Shown here piece by piece: positions 42,669 through 56,091 of a stretch of 64,000 nt of DNA. Both the position numbers and the translations under genes were made by a program. The stretch spans positions 33,604,001 to 33,668,000 of the forward strand of contig OX597842.1 of the NCBI GenBank assembly GCA_951406725.2. The letters are read 5' to 3'. This stretch comes from Octopus vulgaris. Lineage: Eukaryota. Within the stretch, counting starts at the first letter, position 1, and the number at the start of each line of letters is the position of its first letter. The notes below the pieces were generated by a model, which was not told where the DNA came from, ran no database searches, and saw only the letters and a list, made by a program, of their open reading frames with translations.

Positions 42669-42701
42669 CTCGCTTGTTACGGATTTTCTTCATCTCTTCC
42701 T
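42669..42701 (-). CDS. Candidate 33-nt phase-1/phase-1 coding microexon, (E)EEMKKIRNKR(G..), of a minus-strand gene, possibly Pax6
   Basis: tattttgcag|AG GAA GAG ATG AAG AAA ATC CGT AAC AAG CGA G|gtaagt: consensus acceptor and donor, open frame, purine-rich, phase-compatible with the start exon at 56079-56091. Confidence 0.6.
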
Positions 42702-42715
42702 CTGCAAAATACCAG

Positions 42716-43100
42716 AGTTACGGATTTAGAATTCTATGCTTGAGGAAGATTTTATAAATAATTATAATAATTATAAAAAAGGTAGTTTTTTTCTAATTTT
42801 TTAATATATATATATTATATTGTGTGAAATTTGATTTAGTATTTCTAAATTGATTTTTTTCCCTGTAAGTTTGGATTTATATTCCCTCAAATAATAATTA
42901 TTTATTTATCTAATAAGTTACGATTTAGAATTCTATGCTTGAGGAAGTTTCTATAAATAATTATAATTATAAAAAGGTGTTTTTTTTCTAATTTTACATA
43001 TATATATTATATTGTGTGAAATTTGATTTAATATTTCTAAATTGAATTTTTTCCCTGTAAGTTTGGATTTATATTCCCTCAAATAATAATAATTTATTTA
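42716..43100. repeat. ~199-bp direct tandem duplication
   Basis: AGTTACG(G)ATTTAGAATTCTATGCTTGAGGAAG at about 42716 and 42915. Confidence 0.88.
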
Positions 43101-43396
43101 TTTAATTTTTAATTCGGGGCTACGATGAAAGGTTATTTTAGACATTAAATATATACGTATACAAAAATATTGGCGGATGTTTGGTTTATATACCCCACGA
43201 AACCACTCGTAATTTTTTAATTTTTTTCTTTTTTGAATTTTCAGAACATATTTGCAAATTTGTTTTCTACACACGACAGTTCATACAATTAGAAAAAAAT
43301 AAATAAGAAAAACAATATTATTTTGTGTGTATGTGTGATTTACGGGCGATTTTTTAGCTGTTATATTTTTTAGCTGTTATATTTAATGCATCCCAA

Positions 43397-43840
43397 GACT
43401 TGGTAGACACCCATAAAATTATCAACCATCGTACAAACAATAACTCTGACCACCTTTTCAAACTCCACCCATCTAGCACCCGTGGACATATTTACAAAGT
43501 AAGAAAACAGCACAGCTCCCATGACTTCAGGAAACATTTTTTTACGCTGAGAGTTGCTGAAGCGTGGAACAAACTGCCGGCATCAGTTGTTAGTTGTCGG
43601 AGCACTGCATCCTTTAAAACTTCCATGCTTCCTGAGATTTGCCAACACTACAACTGATTTTCTCCCCTCCATACACACACAAGCATGTATCTGTTTCATA
43701 CATTGTTCGCTTTCCAGACATTTTTGCATTACTGCATGTACTTTATATGCACTTTCTGACAAGTTGTGGTGCACCTGAGCACTGTATACAATAATTTCAT
43801 TATTATTATTATTATTATTATTCTTCTTATTATTATTACT
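43397..43840 (+). mobile_element. 3' end of a CR1-group LINE with (TTA)n tail
   Basis: Peptide ..STRGHIYKVRKQHSSHDFRKHFFTLRVAEAWNKLPASVV..FK has the CR1 TRGH..K..R..FF..RV...WN.LP motif. Confidence 0.88.
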
Positions 43841-45259
43841 ATCTGTTACCTTCATCGTTTCAGTGGAATTCTGGTTTAAGCTCTCATGTAATCCTTTTTT
43901 TTTTCAGAAAAGCTTTGCTAATTTGTGTTCTACACAAGGGAATTTATATGACTATGACACATAAAAGAAAAAAACAAAACTATTATTTTGTCCGTGTGTG
44001 TAAATTAAGAGTGATTTAGCTGTTATAATTAGCGCATCGCACGACCACCTCTTACCTTTCTCGTTTTAAGAATCCCATATATACCCTCGTACATTTTTTA
44101 TGCTTTGAAATTTTGAGAAAATTTTTGTTTATTTATGTTCATCACACGGGAATTCATACGATTATGAAGAAAAACAACAAAATTCTTTTGTATGATTTAA
44201 GGGCGATTTTAATGTTATTTTTAGCACATCCCACGACCACCTAAAACCTTTCGTGTTTCGGCGGATCACTGGTTTAATCACCCCATGTAACCCGACATAG
44301 CATTTTTATTTTATTGGAATTACCAGATTAATTTTTGCAAATGTGTGTTCTACATGCGGAATTTCATACACTTATGAAAAATATATAGAGACGAAGAAGA
44401 AGAAGAAGAAGAAGAAGAAGAAGAAGAAGAAGAAGAAGAAGAAGAAGAAGAAGAAGAAAACTTTTTGAGTGTTTGGACACATCTATTCCAATACCCGGGA
44501 TAGATAAATAATCTATCTTTGAGAGATCATTTTTTTTTTCTCATTTTAAATTTGCCAAAATATCTTTTACCGTTCAAAATCAATTCAATATGGCTTCTTC
44601 TATTTGAAAATGAGCATTAAGAGATACTAACCAAAAAATTTTTTAATAAATTAAAAAATAGAAGCGAATTACGCTAAATATTTCACTTCAAAATTATTTT
44701 CGAATAAATAAAAACGAATTCTGATTTCTTTTATCTTTCTCAATTCTGATAAAAGAAATTTTTAAGAGAAATACAACGAAAAATAAACGAAATAAAATGA
44801 AACAATATGAACGAAAGAAAGAAAACTACTCGCTAAAATGACAAATTCACCATCTTGACATCCATCGAAAAGCGTTCGTTTACACAACATCAACAGAAAT
44901 TACCTATCAAAAGGACCTTAAGAAAACATGCGTGGGTGTAAGCTAAGATATTTGCTCCCAGCCACATACTTCTAGGTTCAGTCCCACAGGCTGGCATGAT
45001 GGGCGAGTATCTTCTACTATAGCTTCGGGCTGACCAAATCCCTGTGAGTTGATGTGGTAGACGGAAACTGAAAGAAGCCCGTCGGCATCATTTCTATCAG
45101 CTCCGTCTTGCGCCCCCTTGTCCTGTCAATCTGCCATTTCTGTGTAATTTTCCTAGAGCAGTCTGCACTTGTATTGCCTAAGTTTTCTTTTCCGAAATCC
45201 CTGTGAGTGGATGTGGTAGACGGAAACTGAAAGAAGCCAGTTGTATATATATATATATA

Positions 45260-45408
45260 TAACAATTGAGGATAAAATCTTTAAAAGAAATTATCAGTAG
45301 TCAGCGTGAAAAACCTCGTAAGAGAAAAAATCCGTAAATTTTTCTCTTACGAGGTTTTTCACGCTGACTACTGATAATTTCTTTTAAAGATTTTATCCTC
45401 AATTGTTA
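45260..45408. repeat. Perfect inverted repeat (70-bp arms, 9-nt loop)
   Basis: TAACAATTGAGGATAAAATC...CCTCGTAAGAGAAAAA and its reverse complement. Confidence 0.95.
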
Positions 45409-45801
45409 ATTTATATTTTTCACCGGAATAGTTCAATACTGAATTTTTATTCCGACTAGACAATTTGTTACCGAAATGCATTGCGAATAAGCCCGCCATT
45501 TTCATAGATATGTAAAGATAAACATTCGTACATGCTACGACGAATTCTACGGTTGGCTATCGAGCTTGTAATGTTATGTTTTCTCTTATATTTCTTGAGT
45601 TTGTTGCACTGACGAACATGAAATGCATATTCTGCATTGAATGCGAAATCACATGTGATATGTAACTGAATTCTTTTTTAAATGATGTGTTTTGAAGTTT
45701 TGCATTCGGTAAAATTTTGTTTATTTTTAGTAGTTTTGACCGCATTGGTCCCTCTTAGCGTGTTGGTATCTACGAATAGTAGTACCCTCAATATAATATA
45801 A

Positions 45802-54036: not shown

Positions 54037-54560
54037 ACTACACTGAAAGAGGTACAATCCATCCTTGCCATTTTCGCAACTTTCACCCACCTTTCAATGA
54101 ACTCACTCGAGGGCAACACTTCCCTCTCCACTCTCAATTTCGTTTTCGAGTGAAACTTGAAGTCAATGAGAGCTCTACCAAAGAGGAACGTTTCTTTTCT
54201 CATGCTTTTCAACCTTGTACACCAAACAACCTCTTTCGCCAAAGTCACCAGGCAAAGGAAAACTGTCTTGCCTGACTGCCTGCCTGACTGAAGGAGGGCG
54301 GCGGGGCAATCATCATTACAGATTCAGCCGATAGACGGGTCCGTCCCACACGTGACAGCAGCTGTTCGATATGACCCCACGTCTGCAACGCCAGGACACT
54401 GAACGAGTGCGTGCGCATCTGTGCCTGCAGAGTTTGCCTCGAAAGGATTTTGAGACTGGTACTTGGGTGTTAAGTGTTGTGGAAAGAGGCCCTGTGAGAT
54501 CTTTGACAACAGGTTGCTGTCGGCTCTTAATTAGGCGGAGCCAGTGAAATCGAAAGCTCT
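54037..54560 (-). mobile_element. Degenerate Tx1/L1-group LINE ORF2 C-terminus
   Basis: Frameshifted minus-strand peptides HALVQCP (zinc-knuckle remnant) and LAKEVVWCTR..KLRVER..EFIERW. Confidence 0.6.
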
Positions 54561-54804
54561 GAAAAGTGAAATGAATATAATACAACTAATACATTATTTA
54601 CACTGGACGGATGTGTGCCCTCATCTTGTTTGTTGTAACCACAACGTTTTGCCAGTGCCTAGAATAATAATAATAATAATAATGATAATAATAATAATAA
54701 TAATAATGATGATGATGATGATGATGATAATAATAATAATAATCATATCACCAAAAAATACTTTAGGAATGAGAACCCAGGGTTGGGTTCAAAATTCTAC
54801 CAGG

Positions 54805-54852
54805 ACAGCTGATGAAGGCTGGAGAGTAAATCAGCCGAAAAATTGTGGTAAC
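54805..54852 (+). ncRNA. Degenerate Penelope-type hammerhead motif
   Basis: CTGATGA-A-GGCTG-gagagtaaat-CAGCC-GAAA at 54809-54840; stem III and stem I disrupted. Confidence 0.45.
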
Positions 54853-54959
54853 AACAAACAAAATGGGGTCACATAACCGTCCAATGTAAATAATGTAAAT
54901 AATGTACAGAATTCCTGAACTCTAAGATATAGAACAATAACAATACTAATACTAGTAAC

Positions 54960-55820
54960 GATCGTTTCTGCGAAAGCACAAGTCCTGAAACTTTGGGTGG
55001 GGTAGAATTGTCGATTACATCAACCCCAGAGTATCACTGGTATTCGATTTACTGACCCCAAAAAGATGAAAAGCAAAGTTGATCTTGACAGAATTTGAAC
55101 TCAGAACATAAAGACAGATGGAATTCTACTAAACATTTTGCCCGGCGTGTTAACGATTCTGCCAACTCGTCGCCTTAAAAATAATGATAATGATCCCTTT
55201 AACTAAAGGCACAAGGCCTCGAATTTTGTGGGGAGGGGCTAGCCAATTATGCTGACCCCAATACGTAACTGATACTTATTTCATGGATCCAGAAAGGATG
55301 AAAGGCAAAGGTTTACCTCGGCGGAATTTGAATTCAAAACGTAAAGACGGTCGAAATGCTGCTAAGCATTTCGTCCGGCGTGTTAACGATTCTGCCAGCT
55401 CACCGCCCTAATAATAATATTCCTTTCTACTATAGGCACAAGGCCTGAAATTTTGGAGGAAGGGACTAGTCGATTACATCGCCCCCAGTACGCAACTGGT
55501 ACTTAATTTATCGACTCACAAAAGGACGAAAGGTAAAGTCCACCTCGGCGGAATTTGAACTCAGAACGTAGCGGCAGACGAAATACTTGTTTCTTTACTA
55601 CCCACAAAGGGCTAAACACAGAAGGGACAAACAAGGACAGACAAAGGGTTTAAATCGATTAATTCGACCCCAGTGGGTAACTGGTACTTATTTAATCGAC
55701 CCTGAAACGATGAAAAGCAAAGTCGACCTCGGCGGAATTTGAACTCAGAACGGAGCGATGGGTGAAATAACGCTAAGCATTTCGTCCAGCGTGCTAACGA
55801 TTCTGCCATTTCGCCGCATT
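54960..55820 (-). mobile_element. Head-to-tail cluster of four diverged family D SINEs
   Basis: Core ..CCCCA..TAC/TATT..GA(T/C)GAAA.G.AAAG..GAATTTGAA repeats near 55020, 55255, 55480 and 55665. Confidence 0.82.
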
Positions 55821-56078
55821 AATAATAAGAATAATTTTGGATAATCGCTTCAGATTCATAAATACAAATAAATAGCATATAAAAATATGCAAAAACCGAA
55901 GAAGATATTTAAGAGAAACAGTTAAAATCCTGAGAAATACTAAATTTCTAAATCTCTCGTAGAGAGTTAAAATCCTAATTCGTACTTAAAGGGGCTGAGA
56001 AACAAAACAAAAATCATTCTAAGACAAACCAACAACAAATTTGATATTCACAAGATAGAATTGAACCTGTTTACTCAC

Positions 56079-56091
56079 CTTTCGTTGGCAT
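56079..56091 (-). CDS. Candidate first coding exon (MPTK + phase-1 G) of a minus-strand gene, possibly Pax6
   Basis: gacaatATG CCA ACG AAA G|gtgagt: A at -3, consensus AAG|GTGAGT donor, in-frame upstream TAA, preceded by unique UTR-like sequence. Confidence 0.55.

What the first reader, a model, noticed from the sequence alone, without database searches (positions are those of the whole stretch)
42669..56091. Hidden gene 5' end: MPTK start exon plus skippable basic microexon, Pax6-like architecture
Seen: two tiny minus-strand exons with consensus splice sites and matching phase give MPTKEEEMKKIRNKR followed by a split G-starting codon. The 33-nt exon is symmetric, so skipping preserves frame, and it carries its own ATG and an NLS-like KKIRNKR. 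Established: Pax6/eyeless proteins can begin M-(P/A)-x-K (zebrafish MPQK, fly MAHK) ahead of (G/S)HSGVNQLGG, with an intron at the paired-box start, and cephalopod Pax6 is alternatively spliced. Inference: this is the Pax6 N-terminus, with the paired-box exon left of position 1, implying an intron over 42 kb. Caveat: an assembly gap separates the two exons.
Basis: partly seen in the sequence, partly recalled or inferred. Interest (0 to 1): 0.72.

Follow-up and report, generated by a model that had tools for sequence, protein, structure and literature searches.

The report
Distant start exons of octopus Pax6
RNA contigs show an octopus first exon spliced to a 33-base exon that lies about 264,000 bases upstream of the DNA-binding exon of the eye and brain gene Pax6; together they likely form a Pax6 start missing from the public octopus protein found here, adding a short positively charged arm that is predicted to help the protein grip DNA and that recurs in clams, snails, worms and sea urchins, so it is likely very old.

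Summary
Contigs from two studies stop exactly at donor 56079 and continue with the first 30 nt of the 33-nt exon. The next paired box on the minus strand is Pax6, 263.8 kb downstream, and its acceptor has the matching phase. That second junction was not seen; phase and homology carry it. The one public O. vulgaris Pax6 protein found starts at another exon 192 kb closer, so the locus likely has two starts and spans about 401 kb. The layout MPxK, acidic stretch, KKxRxKR, paired domain is not octopus-specific: the basic motif is in 30 of 36 other lophotrochozoan rows, 8 of 10 flatworm and 7 of 9 echinoderm genera, and 0 of 25 arthropod genera. Corrections: exon 1 is at least 353 nt; skipping was not seen in octopus (2 of 2 junction contigs include the exon), only in oyster, abalone and squid-like proteins; the internal ATG is not conserved. 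The arm most likely aids DNA binding (untested); an NLS is the rival.

The parts
56079..56431 (-). Distal 5' exon of Pax6 (at least 353 nt: 340 nt UTR plus ATG CCA ACG AAA G = MPTK and a split codon). True 5' end not known; an X1 contig runs past 56440.
   Evidence: Contig X3 56431-56079 with 0 differences, X7 56306-56079, X15 (organism B) 56416-56088; sequence
56289..56351 (-). Upstream ORF, 20 codons, out of frame with MPTK, inside the transcribed UTR; use untested
   Evidence: covered by contig X3
56185..56205 (-). Upstream ORF, 6 codons, in frame with MPTK but stopping before it; use untested
   Evidence: covered by contigs
56073..56078 (-). 5' splice site gtgagt, phase 1
   Evidence: contigs of two studies leave the genome exactly here
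42702..56078 (-). Intron 1, 13,377 nt as assembled, including the 100-N gap at 52311-52410
   Evidence: bridged by RNA contigs
42716..43106 (-). 192-bp tandem duplication that ends at the likely branch-point region; only the proximal copy is followed by the acceptor
42702..42720 (-). 3' splice site: candidate branch point about 18 nt upstream, short pyrimidine tract, gcag; no UGC apart from the acceptor's own
   Evidence: the branch point is inferred
42669..42701 (-). 33-nt symmetric phase-1 exon encoding EEEMKKIRNKR (acidic then basic arm, KKxRxKR)
42663..42668 (-). 5' splice site gtaagt, phase 1
   Evidence: use inferred
1..42668 (-). First 42.7 kb of the inferred 263,810-nt intron 2, which ends at the Pax6 paired-box acceptor (exon starts G000:C29:33382858) and holds the other start exon (MKETPE, G000:C29:33467861-33467681)
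   Evidence: no Pfam family above its cut-off in 148 open frames scanned

Best explanation
These two exons, which RNA contigs show spliced to each other, are likely the distal start of the octopus Pax6 gene, and the 33-nt exon is predicted to place a short basic arm directly in front of the paired domain that likely strengthens or tunes its grip on DNA. A likely distal promoter, 277 kb upstream of the paired-box exon, gives a first exon with a long UTR and the MPTK start. Splicing adds the 33-nt exon (shown) and then likely crosses 263.8 kb to the paired-box exon (inferred from phase and homology), giving MPTK, the arm, then the paired domain. A second start exon (MKETPE), 85 kb from the paired box, gives Pax6 without the arm. 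Skipping of the symmetric exon would give a third, minimal form (seen in relatives, not in octopus). Promoter choice and cassette use would thus set whether the paired domain carries the arm.
For: Junction 1 is in contigs of two studies, and both loose ends (61 and 45 nt) are longer than the 33-nt exon. The nearest downstream paired box on this strand and contig is Pax6 (98-99% identical to squid Pax6) and opens with tgcag|GG CAT AGC, which completes a Gly codon. The remaining Pax6 exons follow in order. Chiton Pax6 isoform X4 (XP_064599924.1) has nearly the same N-terminus joined directly to the paired domain. The basic motif is present in 30 of 36 non-cephalopod lophotrochozoan rows (the 6 misses: 3 partial models, 1 aberrant Elysia model, 2 brachiopods with the minimal form) while the cassette length varies from 10 to 46 aa, and it stays at the cassette's C-terminal end; this fits selection for being next to the DNA-binding domain. 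Forms without the arm are annotated beside forms with it in oyster (XP_065940766.1) and abalone (XP_046376060.1); a squid-like Logan protein P0128 has MPTK joined to the paired domain; Mytilus isoforms drop only the basic half. Pax6 is reported to have an NLS inside the paired domain already (PMC7046147, passage), and 10 of 30 arms miss the recalled K(K/R)x(K/R) NLS consensus yet keep the charge.
Against: The junction to the paired box was not seen: only 30 letters of each loose end were printed. No skip junction was seen in octopus. No cephalopod protein held carries the arm: 0 of 6 cephalopod rows, and 0 of 437 proteins held contain the octopus peptide. Isoforms in chitons, scallops, Lineus, Lingula, Owenia, Physella and sea urchins insert extra residues between the arm and the paired domain, so adjacency is not obligatory. 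20 of 30 arms, and the octopus arm, do match the NLS consensus. Arthropod and vertebrate Pax6 work without the arm. The solved PAX6 chain (6pax) aligns only from the HSG onward, so it says nothing on the arm. Homolog isoforms are mostly automatic gene models. No binding or localisation test was run.
Confidence: 0.5

Rival explanations
1. Same exons and gene, but the arm is mainly an extra monopartite nuclear localisation signal that raises nuclear import of the distal-promoter isoform.
For: KKIR fits the recalled K(K/R)x(K/R) consensus, as do 20 of 30 homologous arms. Cephalopod variants that skip the exon before the homeodomain (PMC3942700; also the O. vulgaris protein P0132) lose the basic LKRKLQR stretch and could use a spare signal.
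Against: All 7 gastropod rows, Platynereis, Lingula and Saccostrea miss the consensus. An NLS is reported inside the paired domain itself (PMC7046147). An NLS would not need to sit against the paired domain.
Confidence: 0.28
2. The exon is effectively constitutive in octopus transcripts from the distal start and the arm is a low-impact relic; the skip forms in databases are splicing noise, so there is no regulated switch.
For: 2 of 2 junction contigs include the exon. No separate UGC enhancer, no TGCATG, and no YCAY enrichment near the exon (13 in 500 nt, reached by 14% of background windows). A true skip form beside an included form was found in only 2 of 30 rows.
Against: The frame-preserving phases and the motif are kept across phyla. 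Several lineages have annotated arm-less forms by different routes. Contigs drop minor forms.
Confidence: 0.18
3. The two exons belong to another transcript (a different gene or a non-coding RNA in the 264-kb interval), or splice onto the MKETPE exon so that MPTK is only an upstream ORF.
For: The second junction is unseen and the distance is very long. The open-frame scan cannot see exons under 110 codons and covered 148 of the listed frames.
Against: Near-identical N-termini are joined to Pax6 in chitons and many other animals. No Pfam family passed its cut-off in 148 open frames of the interval. The three AG sites just upstream of the MKETPE ATG are out of frame for a phase-1 exon (read by eye).
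Confidence: 0.04

Closest known systems
Chiton Pax6 gene model, Liolophura sinensis isoform X4 (XP_064599924.1), and the Pax6 N-termini of other molluscs, annelids and nemerteans
   Same: MPxK start, then acidic residues, then KKxRxKR directly before the paired domain; the chiton cassette is 10 aa, the octopus one 11 aa
   Different: Most other molluscs have a 22-46 aa cassette. Exon borders in those genomes were not tested, only read from isoform differences. None of the cephalopod proteins held has the arm.
Public Octopus vulgaris Pax6 protein CAI9744155.1 and squid Pax6 cDNAs (Euprymna AAM74161.1, Doryteuthis AAB40616.1, Idiosepius BAM74250-4)
   Same: Same gene; six blocks of the O. vulgaris protein match this genome at 100%
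   Different: They start at other exons (MKETPE or MKNTTE, MSCVES, MQEKNF) and lack MPTK and the arm. The MKETPE exon lies 192 kb downstream of the MPTK ATG.
Cephalopod Pax6 splice variants of Yoshida et al. 2014 (PMC3942700; parts 1-2 of 4 read)
   Same: In-frame alternative exons of the single cephalopod Pax6 gene
   Different: Found by 3' RACE; they concern the linker, homeodomain and PST region, not the N-terminus.
Vertebrate Pax6(5a) (PMC4488758, parts 2-3 of 7 read; PMC3942700)
   Same: A small frame-preserving exon at the paired domain; 5a is described as a toggle of DNA recognition
   Different: 5a (36-42 nt) inserts inside the PAI subdomain and probably arose in jawed vertebrates. This exon lies in front of the domain, is unrelated in sequence, and its effect on binding is untested.
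SRRM3/4 (eMIC)-regulated neural microexons (bioRxiv 10.1101/2024.09.17.613571, passages read)
   Same: Short, symmetric, frame-preserving exon with a short pyrimidine tract next to the AG
   Different: 33 nt is above the 3-27 nt class (recalled); no UGC between branch point and AG apart from the acceptor's own; neural specificity untested.

Membership tests
Pax6 (Pax4/6 subfamily) gene at this locus | Paired domain of Pax6 type | tested here: met
   98-99% identical to squid Pax6, 95-96% to vertebrate Pax6 hits
Pax6 (Pax4/6 subfamily) gene at this locus | Complete homeodomain and MDKL-type linker motif (PMC5333810, passage) | tested here: met
   Linker exon with MYDKL and three homeodomain exons downstream on the same strand
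Pax6 (Pax4/6 subfamily) gene at this locus | The two window exons are spliced into the Pax6 mRNA | tested here: inconclusive
   Exon 1 to 33-nt exon shown; the link to the paired box rests on phase and homology
Alternatively spliced cassette exon | Symmetric phase, length a multiple of three, canonical sites | tested here: met
   33 nt, phase 1-1, AG and GT sites
Alternatively spliced cassette exon | Both inclusion and skip junctions in the same species | tested here: inconclusive
   Inclusion in 2 of 2 junction contigs, no skip seen; skip forms only in oyster, abalone and a squid-like protein
SRRM3/4 (eMIC) neural microexon | Length 3-27 nt (definition recalled; a looser 51-nt limit is also recalled) | tested here: not met
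   33 nt
SRRM3/4 (eMIC) neural microexon | UGC between branch point and AG (present in 74-79% of such exons, not strictly needed) | tested here: not met
   The only TGC in the last 60 nt is at -5, part of the acceptor
SRRM3/4 (eMIC) neural microexon | Neural-specific inclusion that depends on eMIC | not testable with these tools
   Only contigs of coded runs were available
Classical monopartite NLS | K(K/R)x(K/R) core (consensus recalled) | tested here: met
   KKIR in octopus; 20 of 30 homologous arms match, 10 do not
Classical monopartite NLS | Importin-alpha binding and sufficiency for nuclear import | not tested
   No complex prediction or assay was run

The most novel reading that the evidence does not exclude
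The last common ancestor of protostomes and deuterostomes had a Pax6 with an MPxK start exon and an optional basic-arm exon directly in front of the paired box. The arm survives in molluscs, annelids, nemerteans, a brachiopod, flatworms, echinoderms and a hemichordate, was lost in arthropods, nematodes and chordates (the lineages where Pax6 has mostly been studied), and works as a splice- and promoter-controlled switch of paired-domain DNA binding that is older than vertebrate Pax6(5a). Octopus keeps it as a 33-nt exon 264 kb from its partner.
Probability: 0.3. Interest if true: 0.72.

Novelty: new variant of a known kind. Interest (0 to 1): 0.48.

Why it matters
Pax6 isoform diversity is the main published idea for how squid and octopus tuned eye development (PMC3942700), yet the variants described there lie downstream of the paired domain, and the cephalopod proteins found here lack this start or its arm. 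The finding extends the octopus locus to about 401 kb with likely two starts 192 kb apart, which matters for enhancer mapping, probe design and knockouts. It also points to an N-terminal module shared by Spiralia and Ambulacraria and absent from the arthropod, nematode and amphioxus proteins examined. If the arm changes DNA binding, it is a second and older Pax6 toggle that can be tested with a simple binding assay. If it does not, this is a useful gene-model correction.

Tried and rejected
No run is on record as RNA; the RNA label is a guess, and I rely on the junction at canonical sites instead. One laying of 611 nt around exon 1 was obtained, so the letters beyond the 33-nt exon, and any inclusion ratio, stay unseen. 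X1 and X15 have no contig across the donor, which is uninformative. Search for the octopus peptide among proteins held: 0 of 437; the three homology searches list only the best 120 representatives and the cluster look-ups at most 15 members each, so an existing RefSeq Octopus isoform is not excluded. Nested gene in the long intron: 148 of the open frames of 110+ codons listed were scanned (many low-complexity plus-strand frames, a few minus-strand ones, and all outside the gene were left out); 2 gave weak hits below Pfam cut-offs; small exons would be missed. A scan for an octopus equivalent of the squid N-termini ending in NG gave 3 unconvincing hits, and tblastn did not place those N-termini. 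Nova (YCAY) and Rbfox (TGCATG) motifs are not enriched. Internal ATG as a start: rejected, not conserved. Folding and complex prediction were not run: there is no DNA partner option, and an importin pass would follow from likeness to solved structures. Literature: searches turned up no description of this N-terminal arm or of the octopus distal exons. Seen: PMC3942700 parts 1-2 of 4; PMC4488758 parts 2-3 of 7; passages only of PMC5333810, PMC5356317, PMC5179022, PMC7046147, PMC8257504, 10.1101/2024.09.17.613571 and 10.64898/2026.09.05.749416 (0 mentions of Pax6 in its main text). PMC20103 (squid Pax-6, 1997) is not held. The quail NLS paper (1995) and the 2018 NLS paper were seen only as citations. 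No supplements were read; alignments or exon tables in them, and in bioRxiv supplements that are closed, could already show this exon.
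Full report
Observation. The two exons are as described. Minus strand 56091-56079 gives ATG CCA ACG AAA G before gtgagt, and 42701-42669 is a 33-nt exon between ttttgcag and gtaagt. One 100-N gap lies between them. In one search, 2 of 4 runs laid, from two studies, have a contig that matches up to 56079 and goes on with the first 30 nt of the 33-nt exon; the other two runs have no contig across the donor. The 30-mer is unique in 464 kb and the exon region has one match in the genome. 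So the first junction is real and spans the gap. The X3 contig covers 56431-56079 without a difference, so exon 1 is at least 353 nt, mostly UTR, with two short upstream ORFs. Among 8 candidate symmetric phase-1 cassettes in the 277 kb downstream of the donor, only this one ends in a basic run.

What it belongs to. The window is G000:C29:33604001-33668000. A paired-box search gave 14 matches, 1 of them on C29, on the minus strand. It is Pax6, it starts tgcag|GG CAT AGC at 33382858 and so needs a preceding exon that ends in one spare base, and the rest of the gene follows down to 33259041. The inferred intron after the 33-nt exon is 263,810 nt, and the gene spans about 401 kb. The species is likely Octopus vulgaris: six blocks of the named protein CAI9744155.1 match at 100%. 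That protein starts at another exon, MKETPE at 33467861-33467681, also with a phase-1 donor, 85 kb from the paired box and 192 kb from the MPTK ATG; squid proteins have a matching start. The AG sites just upstream of its ATG are out of frame for the 33-nt exon, so it is likely an alternative start. No nested gene was found (148 frames scanned, none above a Pfam cut-off). The junction from the 33-nt exon to the paired box is inferred: the loose ends are 61 and 45 nt but only 30 letters were printed.

Relatives. Chiton Pax6 isoform X4 has almost the same N-terminus joined to the paired domain. In one search, 30 of 36 non-cephalopod lophotrochozoan rows have a KKxRxKR or KKxxRKR motif at the end of an acidic-then-basic insert of 10-46 aa; the misses are 3 partial models, 1 aberrant model and 2 brachiopods with the minimal form. 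None of 6 cephalopod rows has it, and 0 of 437 proteins held contain the octopus peptide. In one search a similar arm appears in 8 of 10 flatworm, 7 of 9 echinoderm and 1 of 4 hemichordate genera, and in 0 of 25 arthropod, 0 of 6 nematode, 0 of 1 amphioxus and 0 of 2 bryozoan genera (both bryozoans end in KR only). The minimal xPxK-G form is in 15 of 25 arthropod genera, amphioxus, 3 of 9 echinoderm genera and hagfish. Caveats: one search ranked hits by likeness to the chiton N-terminus, which enriches for arms; the motif is short, so convergence is possible; most rows are automatic gene models; vertebrate N-termini were only read by eye; exon borders outside octopus were not tested.

Is it skippable? 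Not shown in octopus: 2 of 2 junction contigs include it, and contigs drop rare forms. Oyster and abalone have annotated forms with and without the insert, Mytilus has forms that lack only the basic half, and a squid-like Logan protein (P0128) has MPTK joined straight to the paired domain. In Antedon, Apostichopus and Ptychodera both kinds exist, but the arm form has another N-terminus, so these are alternative 5' routes, not proven cassette skipping. The exon lacks the marks of an SRRM3/4 microexon (33 nt; no separate UGC) and shows no Nova or Rbfox motif enrichment.

How it most likely works. Shown: transcription of exon 1 and its splicing to the 33-nt exon. Inferred: splicing on to the paired box, translation from MPTK, two promoters. 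Predicted: the arm's role. I favour an accessory DNA-binding arm (about 0.5 overall). The basic motif stays at the end of the insert, against the paired domain, while the insert length varies fourfold; 10 of 30 arms miss the recalled NLS consensus but keep the charge; and an NLS is reported within the paired domain (PMC7046147, passage). Against this, several species have isoforms that push the arm away from the domain, 20 of 30 arms fit the NLS consensus, and the solved PAX6 chain does not cover the arm. An extra NLS (0.28), a constitutive low-impact relic (0.18) and a non-Pax6 transcript (0.04) are the rivals; the first two readings can both hold.

Comparison and novelty. The gene is ordinary Pax6, and this type of N-terminus sits in public models of other molluscs. 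The published cephalopod variants lie downstream of the paired domain (PMC3942700, parts 1-2 of 4). Vertebrate exon 5a lies inside the domain and probably arose in jawed vertebrates (PMC4488758, parts 2-3 of 7). Nine searches turned up no description of the arm or of these exons; subscription papers, the 1997 squid paper and all supplements were not seen. The scan's own notes held nothing near this locus and only unrelated microexons elsewhere.

Verdict. Real, well supported and probably a missing 5' end of octopus Pax6. It rates as a new variant of a known kind, interest 0.48. The bolder reading, an ancestral bilaterian N-terminal switch lost in flies and vertebrates, has probability about 0.3.

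Noticed in passing
G000:C29:33467861-33467681 (L021): Second Pax6 start exon (MKETPE...DKPT, phase-1 donor), shared with squid (MKNTTE type) and not seen among the other mollusc proteins held; possibly a coleoid addition.
   Followed up: partly
window 42716-43106: A 192-bp tandem duplication copies the intron up to the likely branch point of the 33-nt exon; only the proximal copy reaches the acceptor.
   Followed up: partly
window 56351-56289 and 56205-56185 (-): Two short upstream ORFs in the transcribed 5' UTR, which could damp translation from MPTK.
   Followed up: no
window 5793-7596: About 15 near-identical copies of a 121-bp unit inside the long intron.
   Followed up: no
window 55933-55965: A 33-nt intronic stretch matched by many deep contigs in 3 of 4 runs, with unrelated flanks; likely a fragment of an abundant RNA or repeat.
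   Followed up: no
G000:C29:33305546-33305382 (L040): The public O. vulgaris protein skips this exon (N-terminal part of the homeodomain region), like squid variant 1, though the exon is intact in the genome.
   Followed up: partly
proteins P0106, P0182, P0185 and P0419: Amphioxus and spiders have a different optional insert between MPHK and the paired domain, both containing YSP; the same position seems to gain cassettes repeatedly.
   Followed up: no
G000:C29:33478858 and window 53283: Other candidate symmetric phase-1 cassettes in the long introns, among them a second 33-nt one; several look repeat-derived and none has RNA support here.
   Followed up: no
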